A DNA stretch of 64,000 bases from Planctomycetota bacterium (lineage in GTDB: Bacteria; Planctomycetota; Phycisphaerae; Tepidisphaerales; Tepidisphaeraceae): assembly GCA_026693085.1 (NCBI GenBank), contig JAPLNB010000316.1:21474-85473 (forward strand). Reading direction: 5' to 3'. A model generated the notes under the pieces. That model did not search any database. It saw only the letters and a program-made list of their open reading frames with translations, and was not told the origin of the DNA. The position numbers and the translations under genes are program-made. The number at the start of each line of letters is the position of its first letter. Within the stretch, counting starts at the first letter, position 1. Positions 8,742-26,351 of this stretch are shown in pieces.

Positions 8742-11700
8742 CTATCTGGTATCCGTGCGCTTCTCGCCATATACATACTCCTGCCGCAGCAGCAACGCCT
8801 TCAGTCTTTCCTTGGTTGAGGGTATGGGTGCGTCAAAGGCCAGCCGGAAGCCAACATCGGCGAACTTCTGCGACAAGTCAACCGCCCCGAGCCGTTGGGG
8901 TTCCTCAGGTTGCCATCGGGGGATGGACAGTGCCGAGCCCCCGATCACGAACAGGTCTCGCACTTTAAGGCTTCCGTTGGCACTGCTCACAAAGCGGCTT
9001 CTTAAGAACGTGCATATTGAATCAGGTTTTTGAATGGACAGTTCACGCCAGACGAGTAGGTCGTTGCACACAAACTCGGAGACATTGCCAACCAGGTCGC
9101 AGAAACAGTCGCCATGCACTGCATCGGCAGGACGGAACCAGAGGATCCCGTCATCGTATTCGTCCTCCGGGCCGGTTGTCGTCCAAGGCCCCTTCATCAA
9201 TTTGGACCAAGACGTCGGCGAGCTGCCTTCAGACAGTTTCATTGGCTGGAATATCCCCTCATGCGGCACAGCACGACCAATGCCCAACTGCATCAGATGC
9301 TCGTTCTGGATGCGCCAGGTCCGGTCCCTGAGGTTTGCTGGAGGAGGAGGATCCTGAGTCTTGTGCTTGTACGCCAGACACCACTCGTCTACCGTCGGCA
9401 GCCGACAATGCAGAAGGGAGGCCATATAGGCAGCCGCGGAGATGGAGACCTGCTGCATAGGATGCATGCGGCCAGGACGATCGACTCTGGTTTTGCTGGC
9501 CGCCGCGTAGTACTCGCCGCCGATATACCGCTCATCAATCCAGTTGTTGGCCGGGATCATCCCTTCCGGGCGTCCTCTCGGTGACCAATTCCAGCAATGC
9601 ACGCCTCGCGATCGGTCGTCCTTCTGCAGTTCCCTGAGGGCAGCCCATTGGCCATACGCGCCGACCACATCGGCGAACAGCCCGAGCGGCACTTCCGTTG
9701 CACACAGATAGAATGGTTTGGCGCTGTCGCCCGGAGGATCGATCCTGATGAACTCAACCTCGTGCCGGCGATCGCCCCCGACCGGCCAGGTGAAGTGGAT
9801 GTGGTTGCCGGAGGTGTCGGCCTTCCAGTCCGGTCGATTGGGGCCGGCGGTCGTCGGATCGGGCGTTTCGGATCCGCCGGCTTGCAGCTTTGCCAACTGC
9901 TGAAGCAACGGAGCGACGTCGCCCAGTTCTCGCGCATCCAATTTTCTCGCAGGGTCAAGAAACGCCGAGACGGCTTGACGAGCGGCAGTATCGTCCACGG
10001 ACTCGGCGGCCAAGTGTCTTTTCAGAGTGTTCAGCAGGATGTTGAAGCGTAGAGAGACGCTGATTCGATCCGCCTGGTCGTTCAAAATCCTGTCTGAAGT
10101 GAGGCCAAACACGGGTAATCGTTCCAGGACGGCCTCCAAGCTCTCCTGGCTCTTGGCCGCTTTGTAGAAGCTGAGCCAGCGGTCGATCTTGTGAGCAGCC
10201 AATTCCTGCTCCAGCAAGGTTGTGCGATCCGCCTTGTCCAAACGACCGATGCGTTTCTCAAGTTTCCCGAGGATGGCAACCTCGTCATCCATCGCTTTGA
10301 TGTCAAACGGCTCGATGGGAAGCTGCGCCTGCCGAATCGCCTCAACGGGTTGCCGCAGGGGCTTCATCGCGTCGGCCACCTTCGGATCGGCGAAAGGAGC
10401 AAGCTTCTGCGCGTCGTCCCACGCCGCAAGCAACTCCTTCTGCTCCAGCGGGAGCAGATAGCCTACATCCAGTCGTTCCGCGATGCGGGCGCAGGCCCGG
10501 ACCAGTTCGCGTGCCTGGGCCATCCAACGACTACTTTCCGCCTCCAATTTTTCGATCTCCGGGGCCGACCTGAAGGCGGGCACGCCACTGGGCTCTGCGA
10601 TCAGTTCCAGCGCTCTTGCCAAGGCGGACTGCCGTCGGGCGAGTGCCGCGGCTGCGATGGCATCCTCCCAGCTCTTGCCGCTGGATTTCGGCATCTCCAG
10701 CTTCGCATCCGTCGCCTGCAGTCGAGTCATCAGGGACTTGAGCGATTCCACCGCCTTCTGCCGGGCTGCCAGGTCCGGCACATCGTTCAACAGTCTGTCG
10801 CGCCTCGCGACCCATTGTTGGTTCAGAATGGGCAGGCCATCCAAGCGGAAGTCGCGAATCGCCAGGAGCCATTTCGCGTACTGTTCCCGTTCGGCGAGCT
10901 GGTTCGTGGCAAGCCGGATCGATCGGGCAAGGTCCTGGTCGAGTTCTTTCAGTGCATTCTCGATCGTAGCCTGCTGCTGTACGGTCCACGTGCCGGCCGC
11001 GACCTGAGCCATGCGATCCGGAAAGGTCGCCAGGGCTTTCTCCAATTCCGGGCCTGGCACCGCCGCGTGTTGGTCATTCAGCGTCTTGAGCAGGGCATTC
11101 AACTCGCCCAGTCTGGTTGGGCCTGTCCAGTTCAATCGCGGGTCCGGGGCGGATGGAGCAGGGACATTCTGGCTATTCTGGGGACCTGTGTTCTGATTCA
11201 CCGGGACTGTTTTTGAACCACTCCCCTGGGGCCTCAGGAACGAATATGCCAGCACCATCGCCACAACGGTCAGCGCGGCAACACCAACCGCTGTCGCCAG
11301 CCACTTGGAACGTGCACGACGACCACCAGCGGATACGCGCGGCTGGAACGATGGCGGATGCTGCGGGGGAAAGCGAAAATCGGGGCCTGACGTGGGCCTG
11401 GTCACGGCTGGAGGTGGTCCGACCGCCGCGGGCCCTGGCACTGGCGCCAAAGCCTGGCATTCGGCAGTTGCCGCACTGCTGGAACTCGCTGGGCCATGCG
11501 CCGGCGTTTCCGCGAAGGTTCGTCCCGCCTCGGCAGGGGGCAAGGCTGTGGCGACCGGCTCCACCGTCTGCCCCTCCGACAATGACAGACCCCGCGGTTT
11601 CGCCTCGGCAATCGCCGATACGGGGACGAACCGGGGAACGGGATCCACGGCCGTAGGGGAAGTAGGCTCGGCCATCGGTTGCGGGATCGATGGCGCCGGC

Positions 11701-13064
11701 GGTTCCGGCTCGGGCCGGGAAGACGTCAATTGCACGGTCGCGGGCGAGGGCGTCGGACCCAGAGGAACTTCCGGGGCTACGAGGGCACTTGATGGGGCTG
11801 GGGCAGCAGGCTCCAGCTCGGGGATCGGCCGCTCGGGTGCCCCAGTCTCCTTCAGAACCGCAGGGGCGGGAATTGACGGGTCCCGGTCGGACAGGCGGAC
11901 GGGCACGGACGCCGCCTGCTCTGGCGCGCGGGCTGCGGGGCGAAACTGCGGCAACGGCAGCGTAAGGGGCGGCAGCGGCACAGGCGCGGCGGATGCGGGG
12001 GACTCCTGAGGCGTGATCTCAGGCATGGGCACAGGTGGTCTTGACTTGTCTTCCGCAGCGGCAATTGTTGGAGCGGCCGCGGTTTTGAGTGGCATCGGAC
12101 CCGTCGCGGTCCGCCCGCGGGCAATCAGTTCCTGGCAACTGGCGATGAAATCCAGTCCCAAGGTGTAGGGGATGCTCGTCGTGAGGGGGATACGGGCTGC
12201 GGATGTGCGGATGCAGAAGAAACTGGAGGGAGCCGGCTCACCGACGAGAAGGTCCACCCAGTCCTGGTCCAGGGGCAGGAGGGCCACGGCCGGGCTGGCT
12301 TGGCCCATCAGGCCGGCCAGGAACTCCAGCCAGGTCCGCAGCGAGTCCTCTGGCAGGTCGCCGACACGGGGAACGCGCACGTGCTCGGCGTCGGCCGGGG
12401 ATGTCCTGGCAATTTGCGAGCTGCGGTGGCCGCTGATGACATCGTGCTTCCGGTCGATCTGGTAGAGGATGCGCAGCAGCCCCTGCGAATCGGGGCCGAG
12501 CGCGGGGTCATCGGCAAGCCGGGCAAGGGCTTTGTGGGACGGTTCGGGATCGGCCTTGGCCGCCTCCGGCGCCGCCGTCAGCCGACGCAGTTTCTTCTGG
12601 GCGGAGTCGATGATGCCCCGCACGGCATCAAGAGAGGGGGCGGCATCACAGCCCTGCTCGACAGCCTCCAGGCTAGGGAGAACGGTCCGCAGCACCCAGT
12701 CCAGCGGCAGGTTTCGGCATTCAGCGCAGACGATGAGCGGGAAGCCACGCCGGCCCCCGGCGTCGGCGGAAGGCCAGATCCGGCCTGCGAAAACGGCCTG
12801 GGCATTCCGCCATACGATGATGTGCTTGCATTCCGGCAGCCGCTCACTGGGAGCAAGTCGCTCCCATTTGGCAACCAGGGATTTCATCCCCTGGTCGTAG
12901 AGAAGGCTCCAAACAGCGGCGAGGCGAGGACTTTCGGCGGGATTATAGAGGAAGTGCTCGATGTAGGTCGGATGCTTGCCGAAGAGGCTCAGAGCCAGCC
13001 AAGGCTTAGGGTCCTTCTCATCCTGGACCAGCCTTCCAAGCAGTTTCTGGAATAAGGCGGCCAT
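8742..13064 (-). CDS. TagF(ImpM)-like N-domain, Pro/Ala/Ser-rich linker, single TM, helical ectodomain, C-terminal FGE-sulfatase-like domain (1440 aa)
   Basis: TagF signature 'LSLFGKHPTYIEHF...WPSADAGGRRGFPLIVCAE' (nt ~12735-12985). Low-complexity P/A/S region ~11280-12060. TM 'WLATAVGVAALTVVAMVLAYSFL' (~11240-11310). FGE-like 'PFYLCATEVPLGLFADVV' (9672-9713), 'GNVSEFV', 'FVIGGSAL', 'FADVGFRLAFD' (~8800-9800). AGGAGA lies 5 nt before the ATG. The gene sits directly after tssM, as tagF does in imp-type clusters. Confidence 0.75.
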   Translation of the reverse strand: MAALFQKLLGRLVQDEKDPKPWLALSLFGKHPTYIEHFLYNPAESPRLAAVWSLLYDQGMKSLVAKWERLAPSERLPECKHIIVWRNAQAVFAGRIWPSADAGGRRGFPLIVCAECRNLPLDWVLRTVLPSLEAVEQGCDAAPSLDAVRGIIDSAQKKLRRLTAAPEAAKADPEPSHKALARLADDPALGPDSQGLLRILYQIDRKHDVISGHRSSQIARTSPADAEHVRVPRVGDLPEDSLRTWLEFLAGLMGQASPAVALLPLDQDWVDLLVGEPAPSSFFCIRTSAARIPLTTSIPYTLGLDFIASCQELIARGRTATGPMPLKTAAAPTIAAAEDKSRPPVPMPEITPQESPASAAPVPLPPLTLPLPQFRPAARAPEQAASVPVRLSDRDPSIPAPAVLKETGAPERPIPELEPAAPAPSSALVAPEVPLGPTPSPATVQLTSSRPEPEPPAPSIPQPMAEPTSPTAVDPVPRFVPVSAIAEAKPRGLSLSEGQTVEPVATALPPAEAGRTFAETPAHGPASSSSAATAECQALAPVPGPAAVGPPPAVTRPTSGPDFRFPPQHPPSFQPRVSAGGRRARSKWLATAVGVAALTVVAMVLAYSFLRPQGSGSKTVPVNQNTGPQNSQNVPAPSAPDPRLNWTGPTRLGELNALLKTLNDQHAAVPGPELEKALATFPDRMAQVAAGTWTVQQQATIENALKELDQDLARSIRLATNQLAEREQYAKWLLAIRDFRLDGLPILNQQWVARRDRLLNDVPDLAARQKAVESLKSLMTRLQATDAKLEMPKSSGKSWEDAIAAAALARRQSALARALELIAEPSGVPAFRSAPEIEKLEAESSRWMAQARELVRACARIAERLDVGYLLPLEQKELLAAWDDAQKLAPFADPKVADAMKPLRQPVEAIRQAQLPIEPFDIKAMDDEVAILGKLEKRIGRLDKADRTTLLEQELAAHKIDRWLSFYKAAKSQESLEAVLERLPVFGLTSDRILNDQADRISVSLRFNILLNTLKRHLAAESVDDTAARQAVSAFLDPARKLDARELGDVAPLLQQLAKLQAGGSETPDPTTAGPNRPDWKADTSGNHIHFTWPVGGDRRHEVEFIRIDPPGDSAKPFYLCATEVPLGLFADVVGAYGQWAALRELQKDDRSRGVHCWNWSPRGRPEGMIPANNWIDERYIGGEYYAAASKTRVDRPGRMHPMQQVSISAAAYMASLLHCRLPTVDEWCLAYKHKTQDPPPPANLRDRTWRIQNEHLMQLGIGRAVPHEGIFQPMKLSEGSSPTSWSKLMKGPWTTTGPEDEYDDGILWFRPADAVHGDCFCDLVGNVSEFVCNDLLVWRELSIQKPDSICTFLRSRFVSSANGSLKVRDLFVIGGSALSIPRWQPEEPQRLGAVDLSQKFADVGFRLAFDAPIPSTKERLKALLLRQEYVYGEKRTDTR

Positions 13065-13260: not shown

Positions 13261-16200
13261 CTAGTTCCCGTCAGGGCCGGTCAGCCAATCAACGAGTGGC
13301 GTAATATTCGCATTCGCGTCAAAGGTGAAGATAAGCACCAGCGGTGCCTTACCCTCCTGGACGAGATACTCCAGGCACCATTCCTGGGGTTTCGGATTAT
13401 CAACCTTCTTCGCGCGGCCGTCGGCCATCAGGTGCAGGAGTGACCAATCGTTGCTCATCCTGCCGTTCTTATTCGGATCAGGCAATGACGCATTCGGCTG
13501 TGTGTTCTTCCACTTCGGATTCTTTTCCCCCTTATCCGCTGGTTCCACAAAAAAGCCAAACTCGAAAATCAATGGCTTTCCGGGCAACTTGAACTTCATT
13601 AAGTCGCTGCCCTTGTCATTAAGAGCATGAAGGTTAAGGACGAGGGAAGCGTCGCCCTGTTCGATCTTGAGATGCTCTGCGACCGGAACTAACGCTGACG
13701 AATTGCGACATGAGATGGTGCAGGAAATGGATTTTTGGGGATCCGGAAGTGCATTTAGGAGCTTGCTCACGCGTTTCAGATATTCGTTCTGCTTGTCATT
13801 GAGGCCGGCCGTCCACCGAATATTCTCGATGGCAGAATTGATAAGGATGATATCGGCGTCTTTGCGGGGGTTTTCGAGCCCAATCTTGGCAAGCGAGTCC
13901 GCCTCATCGCTCTTCCCAGAGTCGCCTAGAATAATGAGTTGTTCCTTCGCTTTGCCGAGTTCATTGGTGGTCAGATCACGAACACCTGGGCGCCGGACCA
14001 ACGGAAAGGCGTCCAGGCCCTCCATCGCCTTAACGGCGGCCTCGATCCTGTCCTTGCTATCCCGACCTATCAGTTCCAAGGCCTTGACACAAAGATTTCT
14101 GCAGTAGTTTTGCACGAAGCCATCGCTTGTCACGTAATACGTTCCCCGGAACTTACTGGACTTACTGGAGCGGAGATTCCTGCTCGCTTCGAGCGGATCC
14201 TTGTCCAACTTAGGCCACGCCTCTACCATGACCCCGAACTGCTTCATCCAGGCCTCGTCCTCCAAGGACGCCTGACCGGCCACGTCGACCGCATCGAGTT
14301 TCCGATCGATGACTTTGAGCGCTTCGTTCACACTCACGAACAGTTTAGTCAGCCCCTTGGAGGCAAGCGTCATGTTCGATTGCAGTTCGATGAGGTCGCC
14401 ACGCAGCCCTGGCCAATCTTTGGCGGTGACGTTCGTCCCCTCCTTAAGCTGCCCGCGCCAGTAGTTTGTGTAAGCATTCTTGTAGGATTTCTCAAAGTCA
14501 TCTTTGGACTGTGTCAGTTTCTCCGAGAGTGAGTCACGCTCGATAACCGGGGGTTTGGCGGATAGGTGTGTGTCTAGCAGCGGCCAAGCCGCCTGGATGG
14601 TTTTTACCGAGTTGGGGTCAAACTTGGCGTCGAACCTATCGTCAGCATTCCAGGCAATGAGCGGAATCTTCGTTCGTGCGGCTCCCTGGCCCCCCGCCAG
14701 TGTAGATACAAGAGCCTGCCACGGCTTAGCGTCTTTCGCCGGGGGCAGGTTGTCCAAAACTGTACTGATGAACCTGTACTTTTCGATTGGCCGGGCAAGC
14801 GTGGCAATTGCGAAGACAAACGCAGCCTTGGCCTCCGTGGCAGGGGGGTCCTCCGTAGAAGGGAACGCTTTGACCACCGCGTTTCGCTCGGCGGGCAGCC
14901 TCTCAAGTTGTGATTCCAACTTCGTGATGTCGCCCTCTGCATTCAAGGCCGCGGAGAGGCGGTTGTTGGCCCGGACAAGCAACTGCCAGTAAAGATGGTA
15001 CCGGGCGGGTTTGGTCTTCGGCTGGGTGGTGGGCTGTTCGGCCTGCTTGACGAACTCAGCCAATATCATGTCGAACTTCGTGACCTCGTCGCTGGGCGGT
15101 GGTTCAAGGCAGGCTTGCAGCTTGGCCAAGCCGTTGTCATCGGCCGCATCGTCCACACGCCACTTCGTCGCCGTCTCGATTAGCTTTTCCGCTGTTGATT
15201 TTGCCGTCTCGAGGTGCTTTCGCTTGGAAATAAGCCATGCGGGGGTCTTAGCCTCATCAGGAATCAGTGCCAGGATGTCACCCAAGTTCTTGACTCGTTC
15301 TTGGCAAGCTTCTACGCGGCGGGCATACGTGTCAGCCGGGCGCGTGGTGCTGGTCTGCTCTCGCCAGTGCTTCAATGGCTCTTCGTCCCAGGCAACTCGC
15401 GCGTTATCAATCGCCGTCACCTTTTCTCCCAGCTCACCGATCTTGGTGCTCCACTCGCCAGCGGCCGTCTCATGATCCTTCCATGTGGTGAGCGTCTGCC
15501 CGGCGACCGGGGTGAGCGACTTTAACGCAGTGTGATAGTCGGCAAGTGCGGTTTTCAGGTTGGAGGCGCATGTGTACGCCTTGTCGAGCTTCTGGCCGGA
15601 ACTCTCCAGATACGCGATGTAGGCGTCTATCCCTTTCACTACTGCGTTTTGAGCCGTCGTGCCGCCGCGGATTTGAAGGCCAGGAGGCTTCAGGAGCGGG
15701 GCGAAGTCGGACGCCTGGGTCCAAGCCCCCTGCAATGCGAGTGCGTCCTTCAGGGCCGCTTCTTTGTCCGCGCGCGGACCGGATAGGAAGAGGTATTTCA
15801 TCATCGGACCCAGGTCCGGGCTGGGAGGGGCCTCAGATGCCGACATCTCAAGCTTGATAAGCGACTGCAGAGACGTGGTTGCTTCATCGGACCATGTGGC
15901 CCCGGGTTCCTTCTGCATTTTGGAGCGGACTTCACCGAGGATCGGGTGCATTACGGTCGCACCGACGAACAGGGCATGGGCCTGCTTGCAGCGATCCTCC
16001 AATTCATTCGGTTTGCGGAGAGCCAGATAGCGAAAGACCGGAGAGATATAAATAGGCTTCTTGGCAAGTGTCTCGCTCCGCTGGATGACACCCAGCAACG
16101 TTGGCTGCTCCATGCCGGTTATCTGAGCGTTGGCGTATTTAGGGCCGGGTTCAACGATGGCTGGACGTGACGCTGGGGTCAGAGCCGGTTTCAATTTATC

Positions 16201-17631: not shown

Positions 17632-18359
17632 TTTGCCACCTTATCATTATCGATGATCTTCTGGCTCCAATCGGAAACGCCTTGAACCGCATCCGTAAGC
17701 GATTTAGACATTTCCCTGTACAGATAGGCGTTGACGATGAACAGAAGGAGGATCAGCCCGAGGAGCGCTACGCCGATGGGTGTCAGCGATCGAAGCGGCG
17801 GCGCCGTAAGGTTGTCCGCGATGAGCGATTCATACGCCTCCGGGCAGATGCGGGGCACGCCCTCGGGGTCCATCATACCCCTGATGCGCGCGGCGATTGC
17901 CTCTTTATGTTCGTGAACGACCTCGGGCTCATCCTCGTGCTGGCCGAGGAAGCCCAGGCCCATGCAGGTGTAGAAGACAGCCAGGCGCTCATTGACGGCG
18001 GCGACCTGTTCTCCCCTCGCCGGCTCCCCCATGGTCTTCTCCAACTCAAGAAAGAAACTCTGCTCCCCGGTGTAAATGGGCGGCGTCTCCTCCACAGCCA
18101 GTGGTTGCCACTGGCTGGCAAAAGGAAGAGGCCCGGTGCGGATGAAGTAGTCCACGGCGAACACCAGGGGAAGCCGGATCTTCTGGTACTGATCGGGCAG
18201 TCCCGGCGTGGAAAGGGAATTGACCCTGATGGATTCGAACAGGCCGCGGAGTTCGTGGCGGACCTGTTCCGCCTGCCCATGGGGACCGCTTGTGCGTGCC
18301 GAGCGGTTCAGGCGGCAGATGTATTGAAACAGCGGCTCGCACAGCTCGATCAGGGTCAT
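17628..18359 (-). CDS. tssL: T6SS membrane-complex protein TssL (DotU family, no PG-binding extension)
   Basis: 243 aa. 'LCEPLFQYICRL...LPLVFAVDYFI' DotU-like core and a C-terminal TM 'IGVALLGLILLLFIVNAYLY'. Lies between tssK and tssM. Confidence 0.85.
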   Translation of the reverse strand: MTLIELCEPLFQYICRLNRSARTSGPHGQAEQVRHELRGLFESIRVNSLSTPGLPDQYQKIRLPLVFAVDYFIRTGPLPFASQWQPLAVEETPPIYTGEQSFFLELEKTMGEPARGEQVAAVNERLAVFYTCMGLGFLGQHEDEPEVVHEHKEAIAARIRGMMDPEGVPRICPEAYESLIADNLTAPPLRSLTPIGVALLGLILLLFIVNAYLYREMSKSLTDAVQGVSDWSQKIIDNDKVAK

Positions 18360-19743: not shown

Positions 19744-19758
19744 GGATCAGTCTCCACG

Positions 19759-20610
19759 CTAATGCCCCGACCCCTCGCTCTTCCGTTCTTCTATACACGC
19801 ATCGATAGCCTGGCGGATGGCCCGTTGCATCGGCGCCTCCTCCAGTTGAGGGGCCAGACGCTGGCTGTACACCTCCCAGCACCTGGCTTTGGCGTTCTTG
19901 AAAAACCCGCCCGCCTCCGCCTCCACCGCGGTTTCGATATTTTCCGGACGGAGCTTCATCAGGTGCTGCTCGCAAAGCTTGGATGCCACACCGGGCAGCG
20001 CGCTGGTTACCGCCATCGCCTTCTCGATTCTGTTCCGGAACTCGGCCAAGTTGGTCGTCAGAGATGAATCGCGTTCGTCTTTGAGGGACTGATCGACCAG
20101 TCGTTTCCACCCATCTCGCTGGCTGCTGGAGTCCACGGCCTGCACAAATTCGACGAACCTCTGCAGTGCCACCGCCACGCGGGGCAACTCAACCGGAGCA
20201 GGCAGGGGCTTGGCAGGTGGCGGCATTGGCGCGGGGCTACCGACGCGCCATGCCTCTCGCAATCGCTTCATGATCTCCTCCCGCTGGTTCGACGACAGCT
20301 TGGCCCCCTGCTCAATCACCCGCTGCAGCATGGAATCCAGATCCAATTCATCCGGTTTAACGGGCGCGCTGCCACCAGCCGCGTCACCCCAGGCAGGGAA
20401 ATGGCCGGACAGCTCGGCCAAGAACGCGCGACACTCCGAATTGGGAACGTCTTTCAAGGCGGCCATCAGCTCCCGATACAGGAACTCCTCGCGAGCTGCG
20501 CCATCCTCTTCGCTGCAATTGATCTGCACGAGGCGCAGCGCATTGGCGGTCGCGTTCACTCTCCGCAGTAGATCGTTCGACAAGGTGCCCAAAGCTGATT
20601 CTCCAGCCAA
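19759..20610 (-). CDS. Hypothetical T6SS-associated protein occupying the Fha/TagH slot, with no FHA domain
   Basis: 283 aa, protein-like composition, ends 16 nt before the tssK ATG. The start is a TTG without an obvious SD, so the start is uncertain. No FHA motif is seen. The C-terminal 'GGFFKNAKARCWEVYSQRL' weakly recalls the TagH C-terminal region (from memory). Confidence 0.55.
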   Translation of the reverse strand: MAGESALGTLSNDLLRRVNATANALRLVQINCSEEDGAAREEFLYRELMAALKDVPNSECRAFLAELSGHFPAWGDAAGGSAPVKPDELDLDSMLQRVIEQGAKLSSNQREEIMKRLREAWRVGSPAPMPPPAKPLPAPVELPRVAVALQRFVEFVQAVDSSSQRDGWKRLVDQSLKDERDSSLTTNLAEFRNRIEKAMAVTSALPGVASKLCEQHLMKLRPENIETAVEAEAGGFFKNAKARCWEVYSQRLAPQLEEAPMQRAIRQAIDACIEERKSEGSGH

Positions 20611-21360: not shown

Positions 21361-24300
21361 TTATTTGGCTAAGACGTAGTTCGCCTTGGCAATGAATGTG
21401 CGGAGGGGGGATGTGGCGGGGGCGGCGCTGGCGCTAAAGGCGAGGCGGAAGCCGACGTCGGAGAATGCCTCAGGCCGGATCGCCCATGGGTTTCCGTTGA
21501 TCCTTTCAACACCTGAGGTGAGGTCTTTGGGGTCGGGCGCGGAAAGGGCGGACGCACCGATGATCAACAGTCTCACCTCTTTATTCTGAGGCTTCCCGTC
21601 CTCCCCGAGTGCCAACGGTTCATTCGTCACGAACTCGGCAACGTTCCCGATCAGATGATAGAAGTCGGTGGCCTTCCCAGGGTCTGGACAGACCTTGTCG
21701 AACCAGAGGGAACCATCCACGTAAGGCAGGCCCGGCCCTCCAGTTACGAATTTGCCGTTCAGGTTCTGGTCCCATATGTCGCCGGCAGCTTGGGGGTTGG
21801 ACGAGTACGAGCCTGAGCTTGGGTCGGGCGCGTTCAGCCAAGGGGGCTCAGCCTGCAGCAACTTTGGAACGTACTCGTGCTGTATCTGCCACACCGAGTC
21901 GCGCAGGTTCGGCTTTGCGCCGGGCGGCATCTTCTTTTCCGCCGCCTGCCATTCTTTTTCGGTCGGCAGGCGGCAGCCCAAGAGATCCGCAAGACGCACT
22001 GCTGCCTTAGAAGTAAGATACTGGATCGGGTGCTCACGTTCGGGGGGACCGCCAGGGGGCAACAGACCGTTGGCATCGCGCAAGTTCGGGGCATAGTAGT
22101 CGTTCTTCTCGCGATCCTGTCTGGGCATCCAGCCCTCTTTCTTCAATGGCTCCCTGATGGTTTGCTTGTCGAGAGACCAAGTGAGCACACTACTGCCGTC
22201 GCTCCACACACGTTGAATTTCATCCTTCTCGACTTGAGGCCACAACGCACGCGACGCCGTGTAGATATCCGCGAACAACCCCACGGACATTTCTGTGGTG
22301 CAGAGGTAGGCGCCCGGACCATGACCATCGGCCGTCTTGACGTGGCGGAAGAATAGTGTGTGTTTCTTGTTCTGGGGCGAAGACCAGGTGAACTCCAAGA
22401 CCCCGTCTTGCTCGTTCTTCTGAAGGGTCCACTTGACTTTGGCTTTTTCCGAAGCGGGGCCGGCGTCGGTCGGTTGACTGGACGGCGCAGTAGCGGGTCG
22501 CGTAGCCGGACCGTCGTTATTGAGGGCGGTCTTCAGTTCGCCCTTCAGCTTGCTGAGTGCCGAATCGTCCGGGGGCTCGTTCCCGTTCTCGATTAACTTC
22601 TTCATTAAATCCCCGACGACCTGCTTCAGTTTCTCGTCCGAGGCCTGTTTCAGGTTCTCGTCCGAGACCTGTTTCAGCAGCAGATCATGCCTAAGGTCGG
22701 CGGAAACATCCTTATCCTTCAGGGGCCATGGATCGTCATCAAGAAGAAAGCTCTTCTTGCTGGCAATCGCCGACTCCAAGTCCTTTAACGTATGAATGTT
22801 CGGCGCGCGCTTCGTCCAGAATCCCTTCACTTCCCTAAGGACATCCTCCTTTGCCTTGCCAACTAGCTCTTTGAGAAGCTGGCCTGCCAGGTCGAACTCC
22901 TCGCTGTTCTGGAAGCTGTCCTCAGACAATGCGTCAAGTCGGCGGAGCACAGCCAGCTTCACAGCCAGCTTCGCAGCGGGCTGCCGGTAGATTTCCGAGA
23001 GCGTCTTGCGATCAGTTTTGTCCGCGACCGTCTGCAGCAAAAGCTCGACTTGCGGCCAAATGGGGTTGCCGCTCAGTCCAAGCTTCACTTCATCGTCCTT
23101 GGCGATATTCTGGGCCATGTCAGTAACTTTTTTCTGTTCATCGGCAGGGAGGTACTGACCCGACAACCTCTGACAAATCAAGCTCCAGCCATCGCTTAGC
23201 GGTGTCAGCTTCTTATGCCACTCCTTGTATGCCGATTTCGCGGAAACGAACTTTTGCTCGAACCGGTTCGTCCAGTCCGCCAGCTTAGTCCAATCCGCGG
23301 GGGCGGGGACAAGTGATTTGGCCGCCTCGCTTCGCGCTGTATTCGCGAGGGTCTGGAACTCCTTCGGCCAGCCGTTCGTCGCAGCATCCTCAGAAGCCCA
23401 GGTTTCTAAATCCGTCAGGTTTTTGCCAGCCTCCTCCGCGGTCTTGATACTAGCCTCGTCTTGCGAGGACAGCCGCTTGACGTACGGTTCCCACTCTGGT
23501 TTTATCTTCAGCGCCTTGAACTCTATTTTGTCCAGAATTGCGATTCGTGCCGCAACGGTCCCACCAGCGATAGCCACATTAATCGAATCGGCCAGTTGCT
23601 TTATATTCGCATCGAGCGTCTTCAGCTCGCCTGGCCTTTCTCTAAGAGCTAGTTGACACGGCGATTTCCCTTTGATCTGGTTAAATGATAGACGGAGATT
23701 GGTATTCCGTTTCGCCAATTCGTCAATCTTCTCAGCCGCAACCTTACTCGTCTTAGCATTCTCAATCGATGCGTCGACTTGGGAAAACCGATTGCCAGGC
23801 CAGCCGGCGAGCATGTTGTCAAACCTCGTCTTCTCGTCGGGCTTCAATTTGCGGCATTCGTCAGCTAATGTCGTCCAACGCTGATACCGATCGCTCGGGC
23901 TCGTGGCAGGTTGTGTCGTCGCCAACTTGCGTTCAGCAAACACCACCCAATCGACCTCAAGCTTGCGATCTCCAACAACGTACGAGTGAATGTCACCAAT
24001 CGCCGTCCCGACTGTGCTCAGCTTTTTCTCAAGACTCCCAAGGTCATTTGCCCCGAGCAGTTCGTCTGCCATGAAGCCGGATAGTCCAGCAAGATCCGAA
24101 TCTCCTGGCCTGGCAAGAAGAACTTTCGCGATTTGGTCATTGATCTCCGTGCGCTTCTTACTCGACGTCGCAAGGCGATCGCGAAGACCCTGGACTGCGG
24201 CGGCGAGTTCGCTCGGTTTCATGTCGGACTTGAGCTTGCCATCGGGATCAATTCCCGGCCTTTCTGGAATGATGGTGCCCGCTCGGACCGAGTTGAATGC

Positions 24301-25767
24301 CTTCTGGGCAGCCTCCATCGACTCGGTGGCTTTGCTTAATTCATCAGCGAGCGCTCTGCATGCCTCCCCAAAGCCCTCCGCTGGCTGCGTGGCGGGAGCA
24401 GGTACAGTCACGGTGATGCCGAGGGACTTGGCAGCGTTCTCAAAGGCCATTCGCTTCTCGTTGATGCCCTTCCGCCACTTGACCATATCGTTACAGACGT
24501 CGGTGAGATTCTTGACGAGGGTTGCGGAAGCGATCAGACGATCAGCCGGGTGTTTGCTCTTGATGATGGCCGTCACGATTCCAGAGTCGCCGGGGACGGT
24601 CTCCGGGATGCTTGTCCGAGCATTCGACAGGTTGTTGCGAAAGGTATTTTCGTCGTCGCCGAAATCCACGCGATCCTTCAGCGTTCTCAGTTCCCCGACC
24701 AGCGCGGTGTCAAAGCTCTTCAATTCCTGCTCGAGATCCGGGATCTTGCTCTTGAGGTCAAGAACCGTGGTGATCTGAGCCGGCTGAACGATGCCATCCG
24801 GCGTTGGTTTGATGGTCGCTGCGACGAGCCTGCTGAGGCGCGGGTCTGACGACGTGACCGGCGTCCACGTCTTCGGGCTCAGGTCGCTTTTGGCCTTTGT
24901 CAGAGCTTCCCGCGCCATGTTGACTTCGCGCCGGATGCTGTGTCCTTTCCACTTGCCCGACCAGGAAAGTGAGATGGACTCAAACCAGGGCCCGGTCTGC
25001 TTCTTGCCGCCTTCTTTGTCAGACTCCCAGGGGGGCCGTTTAGCGCCACCCGACAACAGGCCAACATCTTCGCATTTGCCGATGATCAATTTGAGAGTGG
25101 GGTCACGTTCCCAGTTTTGGCGCGTACCCTCTTGAGCGACCAGTCGTGCGAATTCCCCGAACCAGGGATCATTTTTCAGGGAGGCCAGCGCGCTCCTGTC
25201 ACGCCACCCGACCAGCGCCTGGCCGATGAAATACCCGGCCAGCCCCATCACAAGGGCGATGATGAGCCAGCGAGGAGGGCGCGGCAGGCGGGGTTTCATC
25301 TCCTCCAGCGCCGCGACCAGGTCGGACAGCTTCGTCAGCCGCTGGGAGGCGTCGGGGTCCAGCAGGCGGCCGCAGAGGGAGCACCATGCGTCGACGTGTC
25401 GCCGCAGGCCGGTGAATAGCTTCGGGTCGATCGGATAGTTGAAGATCTTGTCAAACTGTTTATGCGTAACCAGGCGGAAGATCAGCAGGCCCAGCGCATA
25501 CAGGTCGTCGGCTTCCGATGCCGGCGCTATACCCGGCGGGTCGGCCAAAGCAACCCCTGCACGCGACAGCCGCCGCGGCCCGGAGATTAGGATGGTCGCT
25601 GGACTCAGATTGCCGTGGGCTCGCCCGCGAGTCCTGATGAGCTGGTCCAACCCCGCCGCCCCGCCGCTGATCAGGTTGTGCAAGGCGGCGTGTTTCAGCT
25701 CAACGCCGTACTCGAGCAGCCACTCGGCGGACTTTTCGTAGCCTTGGATGGAGCGGGAACTGGCCAT
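21361..25767 (-). CDS. PpkA-slot pseudokinase remnant (C-lobe only), TM, helical ectodomain, C-terminal FGE-sulfatase-like domain (1468 aa)
   Basis: 'RAHGNLSPATILI' replaces HRDLKPxN and 'LSRAGVAL' replaces DFG (nt ~25555-25617). 'EADDLYALGLLIFRLV' is subdomain IX-like. There is no Gly-loop or VAIK and no space for them, because the tssJ-like stop lies 41 nt upstream. TM 'WLIIALVMGLAGYFIGQALVGW' (~25205-25275). FGE-like 'GAYLCTTEMSVGLFADIY' (22261-22320), 'IGNVAEFV', 'IIGASAL', 'FSDVGFRLAFS'. The ectodomain is paralogous to 8742..13064. Confidence 0.75.
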   Translation of the reverse strand: MASSRSIQGYEKSAEWLLEYGVELKHAALHNLISGGAAGLDQLIRTRGRAHGNLSPATILISGPRRLSRAGVALADPPGIAPASEADDLYALGLLIFRLVTHKQFDKIFNYPIDPKLFTGLRRHVDAWCSLCGRLLDPDASQRLTKLSDLVAALEEMKPRLPRPPRWLIIALVMGLAGYFIGQALVGWRDRSALASLKNDPWFGEFARLVAQEGTRQNWERDPTLKLIIGKCEDVGLLSGGAKRPPWESDKEGGKKQTGPWFESISLSWSGKWKGHSIRREVNMAREALTKAKSDLSPKTWTPVTSSDPRLSRLVAATIKPTPDGIVQPAQITTVLDLKSKIPDLEQELKSFDTALVGELRTLKDRVDFGDDENTFRNNLSNARTSIPETVPGDSGIVTAIIKSKHPADRLIASATLVKNLTDVCNDMVKWRKGINEKRMAFENAAKSLGITVTVPAPATQPAEGFGEACRALADELSKATESMEAAQKAFNSVRAGTIIPERPGIDPDGKLKSDMKPSELAAAVQGLRDRLATSSKKRTEINDQIAKVLLARPGDSDLAGLSGFMADELLGANDLGSLEKKLSTVGTAIGDIHSYVVGDRKLEVDWVVFAERKLATTQPATSPSDRYQRWTTLADECRKLKPDEKTRFDNMLAGWPGNRFSQVDASIENAKTSKVAAEKIDELAKRNTNLRLSFNQIKGKSPCQLALRERPGELKTLDANIKQLADSINVAIAGGTVAARIAILDKIEFKALKIKPEWEPYVKRLSSQDEASIKTAEEAGKNLTDLETWASEDAATNGWPKEFQTLANTARSEAAKSLVPAPADWTKLADWTNRFEQKFVSAKSAYKEWHKKLTPLSDGWSLICQRLSGQYLPADEQKKVTDMAQNIAKDDEVKLGLSGNPIWPQVELLLQTVADKTDRKTLSEIYRQPAAKLAVKLAVLRRLDALSEDSFQNSEEFDLAGQLLKELVGKAKEDVLREVKGFWTKRAPNIHTLKDLESAIASKKSFLLDDDPWPLKDKDVSADLRHDLLLKQVSDENLKQASDEKLKQVVGDLMKKLIENGNEPPDDSALSKLKGELKTALNNDGPATRPATAPSSQPTDAGPASEKAKVKWTLQKNEQDGVLEFTWSSPQNKKHTLFFRHVKTADGHGPGAYLCTTEMSVGLFADIYTASRALWPQVEKDEIQRVWSDGSSVLTWSLDKQTIREPLKKEGWMPRQDREKNDYYAPNLRDANGLLPPGGPPEREHPIQYLTSKAAVRLADLLGCRLPTEKEWQAAEKKMPPGAKPNLRDSVWQIQHEYVPKLLQAEPPWLNAPDPSSGSYSSNPQAAGDIWDQNLNGKFVTGGPGLPYVDGSLWFDKVCPDPGKATDFYHLIGNVAEFVTNEPLALGEDGKPQNKEVRLLIIGASALSAPDPKDLTSGVERINGNPWAIRPEAFSDVGFRLAFSASAAPATSPLRTFIAKANYVLAK

Positions 25768-25808
25768 GAGTATCCAGCCTCGTCACTGCGGAGTCGCGGC
25801 CTGCGCAG

Positions 25809-26351
25809 TCAATCCTTCGCGGGATTGGGAGTTGGCACGATATGCATCGGCACGCCGACGGGCGAGATTGTGATGCTGATGGTGATCGGGTCGCTCCACC
25901 GCTTCTTATCCAGTGGCAGGATGCAGATCCGCGTGTCTTTCATGTCTTTCTCGTCCTTCGATGCTGGCAGGTTGGCCAGGACCACCAGCCACTTTGCCCC
26001 ATACTTCTCCCAGTTCGCCCAGATGGGGTTGTCCGCGGCAAGGACCATGGCCGGCTGCTTGTCTTTGTCCAATATCATCTCCTTCACGACGTTGTTCCGC
26101 TCTTTCGCCGCCCTCAGCAGATTGCCCGCTTTGAACCAATCGTCAACCAGCCCCAGCCCCTTCGTATTGAACCTTTCGAGATCATCGCCATCCGTGACAC
26201 CAACCAAGTGGACGCGAACCGAGGGCTGGCTGATCTCGCGATCCAGGGCCACACTGATATCCGACGGCGGCCGAGTGGGGCCGTTGCACGCGGCAGACAT
26301 CATCGTAAGGGCCAGGACCACGAATCTCACGGGAATTTTTGTCGCAGTCAT
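25809..26351 (-). CDS. tssJ: Outer-membrane lipoprotein, probable TssJ
   Basis: Lipobox 'LALTMMSAAC'. 'SVRVHLVGVTDGDDLERF' and 'AKWLVVLANLP...RICILPL' resemble the SciN/TssJ pattern (from memory). It is the only candidate for the otherwise missing 13th core gene. GGAG lies 8 nt before ATG 26351; the ORF track starts at GTG 26357. Confidence 0.55.
   Translation of the reverse strand: MTATKIPVRFVVLALTMMSAACNGPTRPPSDISVALDREISQPSVRVHLVGVTDGDDLERFNTKGLGLVDDWFKAGNLLRAAKERNNVVKEMILDKDKQPAMVLAADNPIWANWEKYGAKWLVVLANLPASKDEKDMKDTRICILPLDKKRWSDPITISITISPVGVPMHIVPTPNPAKD

What the first reader, a model, noticed from the sequence alone, without database searches (positions are those of the whole stretch)
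8742..26351. imp-type T6SS whose threonine-phosphorylation checkpoint appears rebuilt without kinase activity, FHA domain or phosphatase
Gene order follows the Rhizobium/Agrobacterium imp operon: tssA-B-C-C2-tagJ-E-F-G, then the Fha slot, tssK-L-M, tagF, with a PpkA-like gene nearby. In A. tumefaciens and the P. aeruginosa H1 system these last slots encode Fha, TagF (fused to PppA in Agrobacterium) and the active kinase PpkA.

Every element of that pathway is altered here:
- The Fha slot holds a 283-aa protein with no visible FHA domain.
- TagF is tethered to the membrane and carries a large ectodomain.
- The PpkA-like protein keeps only a C-lobe, with HGN for HRD and RAG for DFG.
- No PP2C phosphatase ORF is present anywhere in the cluster.

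The two membrane proteins share a paralogous ~820-900-aa helical ectodomain ending in an FGE-sulfatase-like fold. This suggests a phosphorylation-independent gate driven by an extracytoplasmic signal. I am not aware of such an arrangement being described.
Basis: partly seen in the sequence, partly recalled or inferred. Interest (0 to 1): 0.85.

Follow-up and report, generated by a model that had tools for sequence, protein, structure and literature searches.

The report
T6SS brake rebuilt without phosphorylation parts
A Planctomycetota type VI secretion gene cluster keeps the TagF and Fha "brake" proteins but has lost every part that reads or writes phosphate, and instead ties TagF and a dead kinase to membrane sensors; the same layout recurs across the Planctomycetota-Verrucomicrobiota group and I found no description of it.

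Summary

**The three altered proteins**
- Gene A (8742-13064) has an N-terminal domain with a TagF fold. This is followed by a proline-rich tether, one membrane helix and a periplasmic helical region ending in a non-catalytic FGE-like domain.
- Gene B (21361-25767) is a single-pass receptor whose cytoplasmic part derives from a Hanks kinase. It reads HGN where active kinases read HRD, and A-D-P where they read DFG. Its N-lobe is deleted in this lineage.
- The 283-aa protein is all-helical. It has no FHA domain, yet it weakly and repeatedly matches the C-terminal domain of T6SS Fha proteins, so it is probably an FHA-less TagH.

**Absences and spread**
- No FHA, PP2C or Pkinase domain was found in any major ORF of the 64 kb window.
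- The layout is not a local oddity. The block p283-tssK-tssL-tssM-TagF-like recurs in most of the 167 related loci I fetched.
- TagF is fused to an ectodomain only where a B-type receptor is also present (26 of 44 loci against 0 of 30).

**Interpretation and caveats**
- My reading is a phosphate-free TagF/TagH gate fed by periplasmic sensors. That mechanism is inferred, not shown.
- tssF is disrupted in this contig.
- A few relatives carry active-looking kinases nearby.
- The rest of this genome is unseen.

I rate it a new variant of a known kind.

The parts
8742..13064 (-). Gene A, 1440 aa: TagF-like domain, Pro-rich tether, one TM helix, then a periplasmic helical region and an FGE-like domain
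   Evidence: ORF; translation; identical to NCBI MAG protein NTU53_18825, Planctomycetota
12105..13064 (-). Gene A residues 1-320: cytoplasmic TagF-fold domain with GK (G29 K30) and S99-x-D101-x3-R105 loops
   Evidence: AF2 pLDDT 88. The seven Foldseek PDB matches with E<=0.001 are all TagF (9t0n, 6iz8, 2qnu; E 9e-8 to 3e-4). TIGR03373 matches weakly in 16 of 28 family members. These residues are invariant in the family. hhalign against Rhizobium TagF aligns both motifs (E 0.002).
11310..12104 (-). Gene A residues 321-585: proline-rich low-complexity tether. In most fused relatives it is absent and the TM follows the TagF domain directly.
   Evidence: Translation; TM positions in relatives are about 340-385
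11229..11309 (-). Gene A residues 586-612: single TM helix, preceded by RRARSK (N-in, C-out inferred)
   Evidence: Hydropathy scan; sequence
8745..9857 (-). Gene A residues 1070-1440: FGE-sulfatase-like domain with no cysteine between the GGS and GFR motifs
   Evidence: Pfam PF03781 24.6 bits against a cutoff of 23.3. The family profile matches only FGE-superfamily structures in the PDB (formylglycine-generating enzymes, SUMF2, CalU17, EgtB, OvsA), best E 4.5e-5. Sequence.
13261..17631 (-). tssM, 1456 aa. Only the N-terminal IcmF-related_N domain is recognised. The periplasmic part is fast-evolving.
   Evidence: Pfam and NCBIfam; dN/dS 1.40 for residues 601-1400 against L001
17628..18359 (-). 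tssL (DotU), short form without an OmpA domain
   Evidence: Pfam; Rhizobium comparator has DotU+OmpA
18364..19743 (-). tssK
   Evidence: Pfam PF05936, E 7e-59
19759..20610 (-). p283: all-helical protein in the Fha slot; probable FHA-less TagH/Fha
   Evidence: No FHA hit. PF20232 T6SS_FHA_C matches in 46 of 78 family members (best 3.4e-6); the window protein scores 14.9 bits at residues 211-252 and the family consensus 22.6 bits, against a cutoff of 23.7. AF2 model is all-helical, pLDDT 81.6. The gene lies directly upstream of tssK in most of the fetched loci where the neighbourhood is visible.
21361..25767 (-). Gene B, 1468 aa: kinase C-lobe remnant, one TM helix (residues 167-188), then a helical ectodomain and an FGE-like domain
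   Evidence: Translation. Homologs P0006 and P0007 share the same start. Hydropathy.
25273..25767 (-). Gene B residues 1-165: Hanks-kinase-derived pseudokinase, C-lobe only (HGN at 51-53, A-D-P in place of DFG)
   Evidence: Family profile against PDB: StkP 1.4e-6, PknA, MEK, CDK9. Motif table. dN/dS 0.35 against L001.
21364..22500 (-). Gene B residues 1090-1468: FGE-like domain, paralogous to that of gene A
   Evidence: BLASTP A against B: 9e-32, 30% identity over about 370 aa. Pfam PF03781 20.9 bits, below the cutoff.
25809..26357 (-). Lipoprotein (lipobox ...SAAC), conserved next to B-type genes; function unknown, possibly a TssJ substitute
   Evidence: Sequence. Present in 26 of 167 fetched loci. 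No Pfam or PDB match.
26458..28575 (-). p705: conserved unknown protein that travels with the lipoprotein and the B-type gene
   Evidence: Present in 26 of 167 fetched loci. No Pfam, NCBIfam or PDB match. dN/dS 0.18.
42287..43901 (-). tssF, disrupted: profile positions 1-333 in one frame and 408-608 in another
   Evidence: Pfam; tblastn with an intact 625-aa TssF
38464..41178 (-). clpV (tssH)
   Evidence: Pfam AAA_2, AAA_lid_9, ClpB_D2-small
33476..36299 (-). vgrG (33476-35683) and hcp (35772-36299)
   Evidence: Pfam
43898..50107 (-). tssA, tssB, tssC, tssC2, tagJ, tssE
   Evidence: Pfam and NCBIfam

Best explanation
**What it is (shown).** This is an imp-type T6SS of a Planctomycetota bacterium. 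The post-translational control module survives only as protein-binding parts.
- p283 is a TagH/Fha-derived helical protein without the phosphothreonine-reading FHA domain.
- Gene A carries a TagF domain that keeps the GK and S-x-D-x3-R loops. In Agrobacterium and Pseudomonas those loops bind Fha.
- Gene B is a receptor whose kinase domain has lost its catalytic Asp (HGN) and, in this lineage, its whole N-lobe.
- A and B are single-pass membrane proteins with the same kind of periplasmic module: a helical stalk plus an FGE-like lectin-fold domain without catalytic cysteines.

**How it probably works (inferred).**
1. The membrane-tethered TagF domain holds p283, or possibly Hcp, inactive at the inner membrane next to TssKLM.
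2. A ligand or envelope event is sensed by the A and B ectodomains.
3. This changes their pairing or conformation, and the B C-lobe acts as a docking scaffold.
4. The brake is released and the baseplate and sheath assemble at that site.
5. No phosphotransfer is needed.
For: **Component identities**
- TagF fold.
- Kinase ancestry and dead motifs.
- p283 matching T6SS_FHA_C while lacking FHA.
- FGE-like fold.

**Conserved binding loops.** The GK and SDR residues that Lin et al. 2018 showed to be required for TagF-Fha binding and repression (PMC5995506) are invariant in the family (G29, K30, S99, D101, R105).

**Synteny.** The block p283-tssK-tssL-tssM-TagF-like recurs in most of the 167 fetched loci.

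**Coupling of A and B.** A fused TagF occurs only in loci with a B-type gene: 26 of 44 against 0 of 30, Fisher p = 3e-8, not corrected for phylogeny. The ectodomain of A is homologous to B-type ectodomains.

**Selection.** Against a close relative, cytoplasmic domains are under purifying selection: TagF 0.16, B C-lobe 0.35, p283 0.41. Periplasmic parts run at dN/dS of about 0.9-1.4.

**Absence of the phosphate parts.** No FHA, PP2C or Pkinase domain is present in the window, with a positive control.

**Precedent.** TagF acts without the phosphorylation pathway and is recruited to the membrane by TagZ in Acinetobacter.
Against: - No interaction or function was tested, so the gate is inference.
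- The p283 match to T6SS_FHA_C is below Pfam's cutoff for the window protein and for the family consensus. It covers only about 55 residues.
- tssF is disrupted here, so this particular copy may be inactive or misassembled.
- About 30 related loci work with a short soluble TagF and no B-type gene, so A and B ectodomains are accessories, not essentials.
- Active-looking Hanks kinases sit beside the T6SS block in at least four related loci, and one locus has an FHA protein.
- Only 64 kb of this genome was seen.
- Ectodomain dN/dS near 1 could mean relaxed constraint rather than diversifying selection.
Confidence: 0.5

Rival explanations
1. A and B are structural parts of an unusual membrane complex rather than signal receptors. 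They would be periplasm-spanning struts or anchors that compensate for missing standard parts: TssJ, the OmpA domain of TssL, and the IcmF-related and IcmF_C domains of TssM.
For: - TssM matches only IcmF-related_N, and TssL has no OmpA domain. The Rhizobium comparator has all of these domains.
- No Pfam family matched the lipoprotein, and no TssJ family was reported for any cluster ORF.
- The periplasmic parts of TssM, B, the lipoprotein and the TssL tail all diverge fast together between two close relatives. Physically interacting partners could behave this way.
Against: - About 30 loci lack B, p705, the lipoprotein and the fused ectodomain, yet keep a TssM of about 1440 aa.
- The cytoplasmic ends of A and B are regulatory modules (TagF, pseudokinase), not known structural parts.
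Confidence: 0.2
2. Phosphorylation control still operates. Active Ser/Thr kinases and phosphatases encoded elsewhere act on the cluster, and B serves as their substrate, allosteric partner or decoy.
For: - Active-looking kinases (HRD or HYD, DFG, VAIK) lie next to the T6SS block in L115/L116, L069, L058 and L031. L017 fuses an HRN+DFG domain to an HGN+DP domain.
- Planctomycetota encode tens to hundreds of Ser/Thr kinases, many with periplasmic FGE-like domains (PMC11032199).
- Full-length B-type proteins keep the beta3 lysine and the Asp of D-P, so they might still bind nucleotide.
Against: - The only known phospho-reader of this pathway, the FHA domain of TagH, is absent from the listed members of the p283 family: nearly all of the 150 best cluster representatives are about 300 aa (251 clusters reach E <= 0.001), and no FHA hit was reported.
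- No PP2C was detected in 2.3 Mb of related loci with a single-sequence probe.
- None of these domains is present in the window.
Confidence: 0.15
3. The cluster in this genome is decaying. The N-lobe loss in B, the tssF break and the near-neutral ectodomain evolution would all be signs of a pseudogenising locus, and no special mechanism is needed.
For: - tssF carries a deletion of about 80 aa plus a frameshift.
- B lacks its N-lobe.
- dN/dS is about 0.9-1.4 in ectodomains and about 1 in the lipoprotein.
Against: - Purifying selection is strong on TssK (0.07), the TagF domain (0.16), p705 (0.18) and the B C-lobe (0.35).
- The same truncated B N-terminus is kept in three separate protein-database entries (the NCBI MAG protein, P0006 and P0007).
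- All other core genes are intact.
- The architecture, apart from the N-lobe loss, is widespread.
- The tssF break could be a metagenome assembly error.
Confidence: 0.1
4. This rival concerns the identity of the signal. The FGE-like ectodomains are immunity-protein-like binders that capture T6SS effectors in the periplasm, either incoming or self-made. A and B would then act as attack sensors or as tethered immunity proteins.
For: - FGE-like proteins (the Tsi3 family) are non-enzymatic T6SS immunity proteins that bind their effector (Lopez et al., bioRxiv 10.1101/2021.05.21.445229).
- The A and B FGE-like domains lack the catalytic cysteines.
- B's ectodomain evolves at dN/dS of about 0.9, with 63-69% identity where neighbouring genes are 93-99% identical.
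Against: - No direct similarity to Tsi3 was tested.
- FGE-like domains are among the commonest periplasmic sensor domains of Planctomycetota kinases in general, so the link to effectors is not specific.
Confidence: 0.15

Closest known systems
Agrobacterium/Rhizobium imp-type T6SS with the Fha, TagF-PppA and PpkA threonine phosphorylation pathway (Lin et al. 2014, 2018; Rhizobium sp. Kim5 pRetKim5c locus, L168)
   Same: - Same core gene order: tssA-B-C-C-tagJ-E-F-G-[Fha slot]-K-L-M-tagF.
- TssC is about 63% identical.
- The TagF loops align.
- The kinase catalytic loop aligns.
   Different: - The Fha-slot protein has no FHA domain.
- TagF carries no PP2C. Instead it is fused to a tether, a TM helix and an ectodomain.
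- The kinase-like protein is catalytically dead and sits upstream of the Fha slot, not after tagF.
- TssM lacks the recognisable IcmF-related and IcmF_C domains, and TssL lacks OmpA.
- About 21 kb of clpV, hcp, vgrG, effector-like and accessory genes lies between tssG and the Fha slot.
Acinetobacter TSA-type loci: TagF without Fha or the phosphorylation pathway, recruited to the membrane by TagZ (Engelin et al. 2025, bioRxiv 10.64898/2025.12.08.692957)
   Same: - TagF acts with no kinase or phosphatase.
- TagF function depends on being placed at the membrane by a single-pass protein with a short cytosolic part and a variable periplasmic domain.
- The conserved alpha and beta loops are kept.
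   Different: - Here the membrane anchor and periplasmic domain are covalently fused to TagF.
- An Fha-derived partner is still present.
- A paralogous pseudokinase receptor accompanies it.
- The accessory set (p705, lipoprotein) is unrelated to TagN, TagX, TslA and TsmK.
P. aeruginosa H1-T6SS PpkA (TagE): a single-pass receptor Ser/Thr kinase with a periplasmic sensor domain
   Same: Topology is the same: an N-terminal cytoplasmic kinase-fold domain, one TM helix and a large periplasmic domain, encoded in a T6SS cluster.
   Different: - The catalytic Asp is replaced (HGN) and DFG is replaced by D-P.
- The N-lobe is missing in the window protein.
- The periplasmic domain is a helical stalk plus an FGE-like domain, rather than the domain of PpkA.
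- There is no PppA partner.
FGE-like T6SS immunity proteins (Tsi3 family) and FGE-domain receptor kinases of Planctomycetota
   Same: A non-enzymatic FGE/lectin-fold domain is placed in the periplasm and linked to T6SS or to single-pass kinases.
   Different: Here the domain ends a 450-900-aa helical stalk and is attached to TagF or to a pseudokinase. It is not a free immunity protein, and it is not attached to an active kinase.
Membrane pseudokinase YukC/EssB of the type VIIb secretion system
   Same: A catalytically dead kinase-fold domain on a single-pass membrane protein serves as a scaffold in a secretion machine (title and abstract seen).
   Different: It belongs to a different secretion system and phylum, and no sequence relationship was tested. 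It is an analogy only.

Membership tests
TagF (Pfam PF09867 TagF_N / TIGR03373) | Scores above the curated cutoff of the family profile | tested here: not met
   No Pfam hit at E<=0.01. TIGR03373 scores 18 bits against a cutoff of 41.2. The family consensus also gives no Pfam hit.
TagF (Pfam PF09867 TagF_N / TIGR03373) | TagF three-dimensional fold | tested here: met
   AF2 pLDDT 88, pTM 0.88. All seven Foldseek PDB matches with E<=0.001 are TagF structures, with TM-scores of 0.37-0.56.
TagF (Pfam PF09867 TagF_N / TIGR03373) | Conserved GK and S-x-D-x3-R loops needed for Fha binding and repression | tested here: met
   G29, K30, S99, D101 and R105 are invariant in 28 family members. They align to the YGKLP and SLDRVGR motifs of Rhizobium TagF. 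Their functional role is taken from PMC5995506.
TagF (Pfam PF09867 TagF_N / TIGR03373) | Encoded directly after tssM in a T6SS cluster | tested here: met
   True of the window and of most fetched loci, and of the Rhizobium comparator.
TagF (Pfam PF09867 TagF_N / TIGR03373) | Represses T6SS assembly by binding Fha/TagH or Hcp | not testable with these tools
   Needs interaction and secretion assays.
TagH/Fha (T6SS FHA protein) | N-terminal FHA phosphothreonine-binding domain (PF00498) | tested here: not met
   No FHA hit was reported for p283 or for the family members scanned. The model has no beta strands. The Rhizobium Fha control scores 48.5 bits.
TagH/Fha (T6SS FHA protein) | C-terminal T6SS_FHA_C domain (PF20232) | tested here: inconclusive
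   46 of 78 members match at E<=0.1, best 3.4e-6. The window protein scores 14.9 bits and the consensus 22.6 bits, against a cutoff of 23.7. Only profile positions ~103-161 are covered. hhalign against the C-terminus of Rhizobium Fha gives E 0.026.
TagH/Fha (T6SS FHA protein) | Gene directly upstream of tssK | tested here: met
PpkA/TagE (active Hanks Ser/Thr kinase) | Protein-kinase fold homology | tested here: met
   The family profile against PDB gives 370 matches at E<=1, and every match shown is a protein kinase or kinase-fold protein; best is StkP at 1.4e-6. hhalign against the Rhizobium T6SS kinase gives E 2e-5. Pfam Pkinase matches only weakly.
PpkA/TagE (active Hanks Ser/Thr kinase) | Catalytic triad: Lys (beta3), Asp (HRD) and Asp (DFG) | tested here: not met
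   HRD is HGN and DFG is A-D-P. The window protein has no N-lobe, hence no beta3 Lys or Gly-rich loop.
PppA/TagG (PP2C phosphatase) | PP2C domain encoded in the cluster | tested here: not met
   No PP2C hit in any major ORF of the window. The Rhizobium control is detected. A single-sequence probe found none in 2.3 Mb of related loci.
Formylglycine-generating enzyme (FGE-sulfatase, PF03781) | Profile and fold membership | tested here: met
   Gene A scores 24.6 bits against a cutoff of 23.3. Gene B scores 20.9 bits, below the cutoff. The family consensus scores 38.9 bits. The family profile matches only FGE-superfamily structures in the PDB (formylglycine-generating enzymes, SUMF2, CalU17, EgtB, OvsA).
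Formylglycine-generating enzyme (FGE-sulfatase, PF03781) | Catalytic cysteine pair between the GGS and GFR motifs | tested here: not met
   There is no cysteine in that stretch of A or B, and no invariant Cys in the stretch of the family alignment between the GGS and GFR motifs. The position of the catalytic pair is taken from my own knowledge of human SUMF1.

The most novel reading that the evidence does not exclude
A and B together form a phosphate-free transmembrane switch for a contractile injection system. Two paralogous periplasmic sensors are involved, one fused to the TagF brake and one to a dead kinase scaffold. They detect an envelope event, perhaps an incoming effector bound by their immunity-like FGE domain, and physically pull TagF off an FHA-less TagH so that the machine fires at that spot. 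This would be a receptor-pseudokinase logic that replaced a kinase/phosphatase/FHA circuit across a whole superphylum.
Probability: 0.25. Interest if true: 0.8.

Novelty: new variant of a known kind. Interest (0 to 1): 0.62.

Why it matters
**A natural experiment on the T6SS brake.** T6SS firing control is understood mainly through the PpkA-PppA-Fha-TagF circuit of a few Proteobacteria. Here a large, unstudied clade keeps the two protein-binding ends of that circuit (the TagF loops and the Fha C-terminal part). It has dropped the FHA reader, the phosphatase and the kinase chemistry, and it has wired TagF directly to a periplasmic sensor. That separates what TagF and TagH do on their own from what phosphorylation adds.

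**Unnamed conserved accessory families.** Four families have no profile that reaches its cutoff in Pfam or NCBIfam:
- the TagF-like family with the FGKHPGW motif;
- the p283 family of about 300 aa;
- p705;
- the lipoprotein.
Current T6SS annotation therefore misses the regulatory module in this group.

**Unusual selection pattern.** Fast divergence is confined to the periplasmic parts of TssM and of the receptor, which hints at selection acting from outside the cell. That is unusual for core T6SS parts.

Tried and rejected
**Searches that found nothing**
- Single-sequence searches of the A and B N-domains against PDB sequences found nothing useful. So did a TagF-family profile against PDB sequences. 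Only structure prediction plus Foldseek settled the TagF question.
- Whole-protein homology searches with A and B returned only 3-4 relatives, probably because low-complexity words filled the candidate list. Searching by domain worked.
- The p283 profile against PDB sequences and the p283 model against PDB folds gave no match.
- The lipoprotein and p705 profiles against PDB gave nothing. I could not show that the lipoprotein is TssJ.
- The FGE-like domain of A as a single sequence against PDB gave nothing. The family profile did.

**Ideas considered and rejected**
- That p705 supplies a kinase-like part, because of its motif SPCDLYALAVLAVRLL. This is not supported: hhalign gives E 0.1 over 22 columns.
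- That the missing N-lobe of B is encoded upstream. This is rejected. The ORF cannot extend, because the lipoprotein gene ends 41 bp upstream, and two other homologs begin at the same residue.

I got round this with homologs from the representative search.
A narrower alignment worked.

**Limit of one comparison**
- hhalign against single Rhizobium sequences gives only weak probabilities, because the template has one sequence.

Full report
**Source and layout.** The window comes from a Planctomycetota metagenome-assembled genome. Genes A and B are identical to NCBI proteins NTU53_18825 and NTU53_18860. All T6SS genes lie on the minus strand. Pfam and NCBIfam identify, in order:
- tssA (48956-50107), tssB, tssC, a second tssC, tagJ/ImpE and tssE;
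- tssF, in two frames, and tssG;
- clpV, hcp, vgrG and a PAAR gene;
- tssK (18364-19743), tssL (17628-18359) and tssM (13261-17631).

TssC is about 63% identical to TssC of Rhizobium, Azospirillum and Tistrella plasmids. The annotated Rhizobium sp. Kim5 locus reads tssA-B-C-C-tagJ-E-F-G-FHA-K-L-M-tagF-kinase. The "imp-type" label and the idea of slots are therefore justified. That stretch holds clpV, an unknown 453-aa gene, hcp, vgrG, effector-like genes, PAAR, a 705-aa unknown gene (p705), a lipoprotein gene and gene B.

**Gene A is a tethered TagF.**
- Curated profiles do not reach their cutoffs. Pfam gives no hit, and TIGR03373 scores 14-18 bits against a cutoff of 41.
- A domain-level search found 28 relatives sharing the motif FGKHPGW[DN]. 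Sixteen of the 28 hit TIGR03373 weakly, and no other family recurs.
- An AlphaFold2 model of residues 1-320 is confident (pLDDT 88, pTM 0.88). All seven Foldseek matches in the PDB with E<=0.001 are TagF crystal structures: A. baylyi 9t0n and P. aeruginosa 6iz8 and 2qnu, with E from 9e-8 to 3e-4.
- The invariant residues of the family include G29, K30, S99, D101 and R105. hhalign lines them up with YGKLP and SLDRVGR of Rhizobium TagF. Lin et al. 2018 showed that these GK and SDR residues are needed for Fha binding and for repression in both Agrobacterium and Pseudomonas (PMC5995506).
- After the TagF domain comes a proline-rich stretch of about 265 aa, then one hydrophobic helix (586-612) preceded by basic residues, then about 830 periplasmic residues.

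**Gene B is a receptor pseudokinase.**
- A profile of the cytoplasmic domains of B and its relatives matches 370 PDB sequences at E<=1, and every match shown is a protein kinase or kinase-fold protein. The best is StkP at 1.4e-6, followed by PknA, MEK, CDK9 and RNase L. HGNLKPANVL aligns to HRDLKPQNIL.
- Across 31 fetched relatives the catalytic loop is HGN in nearly all, HGD in two and YGN in one.
- Full-length relatives have the His at residue 129-161 and keep a beta3 lysine. In the window protein and in its two close homologs P0006 and P0007 the His is at 51-53. All three start with the same MASSRSIQGYEKSAEW. The ORF cannot extend upstream. The N-lobe deletion is therefore real and specific to this lineage, whereas the dead catalytic loop is shared across the family.

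**The Fha slot holds an FHA-less, probably Fha-derived protein.**
- p283 has no FHA hit, and its AF2 model (pLDDT 81.6) consists only of helices. It has no fold match in the PDB.
- A full HMMER scan of 1.84 billion representatives found 251 clusters at E <= 0.001; nearly all of the 150 listed are about 300 aa long.
- When members are scanned one by one, 20 of 44 and then 46 of 78 hit PF20232, the C-terminal domain of T6SS FHA proteins. The best E-value is 3.4e-6, and no other family comes close.
- The window protein scores 14.9 bits and the family consensus 22.6 bits against a cutoff of 23.7. Only about 55 residues near the C-terminus are covered. hhalign against the Rhizobium Fha places the same motif (CW-KY against YWRAY) in that protein's C-terminus at E 0.026.
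- Taking this together with the fixed position upstream of tssK, I judge Fha ancestry likely but not proven.

**Absence of the phosphate parts.** Every non-overlapping ORF of 150 aa or more in the 64 kb, plus several shorter ones, was scanned. None hit FHA, PP2C or Pkinase at E<=0.01. As a positive control, the same scan of the Rhizobium locus finds:
- FHA at 48.5 bits;
- TagF_N plus PP2C_2;
- Pkinase at 96.7 bits;
- IcmF-related plus IcmF_C in TssM;
- OmpA in TssL.

In the window, TssM matches only IcmF-related_N and TssL is the short form.

**The ectodomains.**
- A reaches the Pfam FGE-sulfatase cutoff (24.6 bits against 23.3). B does not (20.9 bits).
- A profile of 36 C-terminal domains matches only FGE-superfamily structures in the PDB: formylglycine-generating enzymes, SUMF2, CalU17, EgtB and OvsA. 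The best E-value is 4.5e-5. The consensus scores 38.9 bits in Pfam.
- Neither A nor B has a cysteine between the GGS and GFR motifs. From my own knowledge of human SUMF1, that is where FGE carries its catalytic pair. The domain is therefore a binding module, not an enzyme.
- A and B align over their last ~370 residues (9e-32, 30% identity). Their helical parts show no pairwise similarity inside the window. However, A residues of about 650-1435 do match B-type proteins of other loci. The "paralogous ectodomain" claim thus holds at family level.

**Spread and locus types.** A scan of one genome per species found 332 loci with the TagF-like motif. They lie mostly in Phycisphaerae, Planctomycetia, Verrucomicrobiota and Kiritimatiellae, with a few bins labelled otherwise. 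I also scanned metagenomes using p283 as the anchor. Across 167 fetched loci, 2.3 Mb in total, two layouts appear:
- Type I is tssA-B-C-hcp-tagJ-E-F-G-p283-K-L-M followed by a soluble TagF of about 320 aa.
- Type II, to which the window belongs, is p705-lipoprotein-B-p283-K-L-M-TagF.

In Type II loci TagF is often fused directly to a TM helix and a B-like ectodomain. Among TagF-like ORFs, 25 complete ones are long, 18 more are already long where the contig ends, and 67 are short. Fused TagF occurs only beside a B-type gene: 26 of 44 loci against 0 of 30, Fisher p = 3e-8, not corrected for phylogeny.

Probing the same loci with single Rhizobium sequences gave:
- no PP2C;
- one FHA protein (L074);
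- active-looking kinases beside the block in L115/L116, L069, L058 and L031;
- in L017, an HRN+DFG domain fused to an HGN+DP domain.

Kinase chemistry is therefore not absent from the whole clade.

**Selection.** I compared the window with a close relative, L001.

| Region | dN/dS |
|---|---|
| TssK | 0.07 |
| TagF domain of A | 0.16 |
| p705 | 0.18 |
| B C-lobe | 0.35 |
| p283 | 0.41 |
| B ectodomain | 0.90 |
| Lipoprotein | 0.99 |
| TssM residues 601-1400 | 1.40 (bootstrap 95% interval 1.11-1.83) |

Cytoplasmic parts are 93-99% identical between the two. The pattern argues against simple decay of the regulators. It also shows that the periplasm-facing parts diverge fast together. This rests on a single pair of sequences, and recombination or alignment error could inflate the values.

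**Mechanism.** The identities, topologies, conservation and co-occurrence above are shown. The following is inferred. The tethered TagF domain holds p283 at the inner membrane beside TssKLM, or holds Hcp as in Acinetobacter (Engelin et al.). The A and B ectodomains sense a periplasmic or envelope cue. The B C-lobe serves as a docking scaffold. Release of the brake then licenses assembly without phosphotransfer.

One candidate cue is an effector. FGE-like Tsi3 proteins are effector-binding T6SS immunity proteins. FGE-like domains are also a common sensor of Planctomycetota kinases in general.

The rivals are a structural role in an atypical membrane complex, phosphorylation by kinases encoded elsewhere, and decay of this copy.

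**Caveats.**
- tssF is broken in this contig. Profile positions 1-333 lie in one frame and 408-608 in another, and about 80 residues are missing relative to an intact 625-aa TssF. This may be a pseudogene or an assembly error.
- Only 64 kb of the genome was seen.
- The loci counted were chosen by motif-based scans. They are neither a random nor a phylogenetically independent sample.

**Novelty.** A 2026 review of T6SS accessory factors mentions neither pseudokinases nor Planctomycetes. Searches that paired type VI secretion with pseudokinase, FGE-sulfatase, Planctomycetota, Verrucomicrobiota or Phycisphaerae found nothing on this arrangement. The library does not hold all journals, so this absence is not proof. 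TagF without the phosphorylation pathway, and membrane recruitment of TagF, are already described. I therefore rate this a new variant of a known kind, not a new category.

Noticed in passing
window 42287-43901 (-): tssF is split. Residues matching TssF profile positions 1-333 are in one frame and 408-608 in another. About 80 residues are missing relative to an intact 625-aa TssF from a related locus. This is either a pseudogene or a metagenome assembly error.
   Followed up: partly
window 13261-17631 (tssM), 21361-25200 (B ectodomain), 25809-26357 (lipoprotein), compared with L001: The periplasm-facing parts diverge far faster than the cytoplasmic parts between two close relatives. TssM residues 601-1400 have dN/dS 1.40 (bootstrap interval 1.11-1.83), the B ectodomain 0.90 and the lipoprotein 0.99, against TssK at 0.07. 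This points to diversifying selection, or to recombination confined to the periplasmic face of the machine.
   Followed up: partly
window 26458-28575 and 25809-26357 (-): A 705-aa protein and a 182-aa lipoprotein have no match in Pfam, NCBIfam or PDB. They travel together with B-type receptor genes in about 26 of the fetched loci. No cluster ORF matched any Pfam TssJ family, so the lipoprotein might stand in for TssJ.
   Followed up: partly
window 4266-8364 (-): Directly downstream of gene A, on the same strand, lie a GAF-HisKA-HATPase histidine kinase (6148-8364) and a REC-HDOD-HD response regulator (4266-6173). They could control the cluster at another level.
   Followed up: no
window 50227-51030 (-): A sigma-70 family gene (regions 2 and 4) sits just upstream of tssA on the same strand. 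It may be a cluster-specific sigma factor.
   Followed up: no
window 51365-61960 (-); L087 11110-20984: A two-partner secretion pair lies next to the T6SS cluster: a 2785-aa beta-helix protein and a ShlB-like transporter. A Phycisphaeraceae relative also has ShlB plus a TPS-domain giant protein right after its TagF-like gene.
   Followed up: no
L017 11785-20610; L115 19605-20930; L069 11554-13638: Some related loci carry other kinase arrangements beside the T6SS block. One is a 2941-aa protein with both an HRN+DFG kinase-like domain and an HGN+D-P pseudokinase domain. Another is an active-looking HRD/DFG kinase with a nearly identical N-terminus. A third is an HYD/DFG kinase with an FHA-like N-terminus.
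   Followed up: partly
window 11310-12104 (-): The ~265-aa proline-rich tether between the TagF domain and the TM helix is peculiar to this lineage and varies in length; homolog P0002 is 29 aa longer overall. In most fused relatives the TM helix follows the TagF domain within about 30 residues.
   Followed up: partly
window 29352-30602 (-): A 416-aa protein between vgrG and PAAR carries an HEFAH motif (zinc-metalloprotease-like) but has no Pfam hit. It is a possible effector. Neighbouring genes carry HEAT repeats and a peptidoglycan-binding domain.
   Followed up: no
window 2599-3144 (+): There is an ORF matching the 23S rRNA intervening-sequence protein family (four-helix bundle, PF05635). 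It is unrelated to the T6SS cluster.
   Followed up: no
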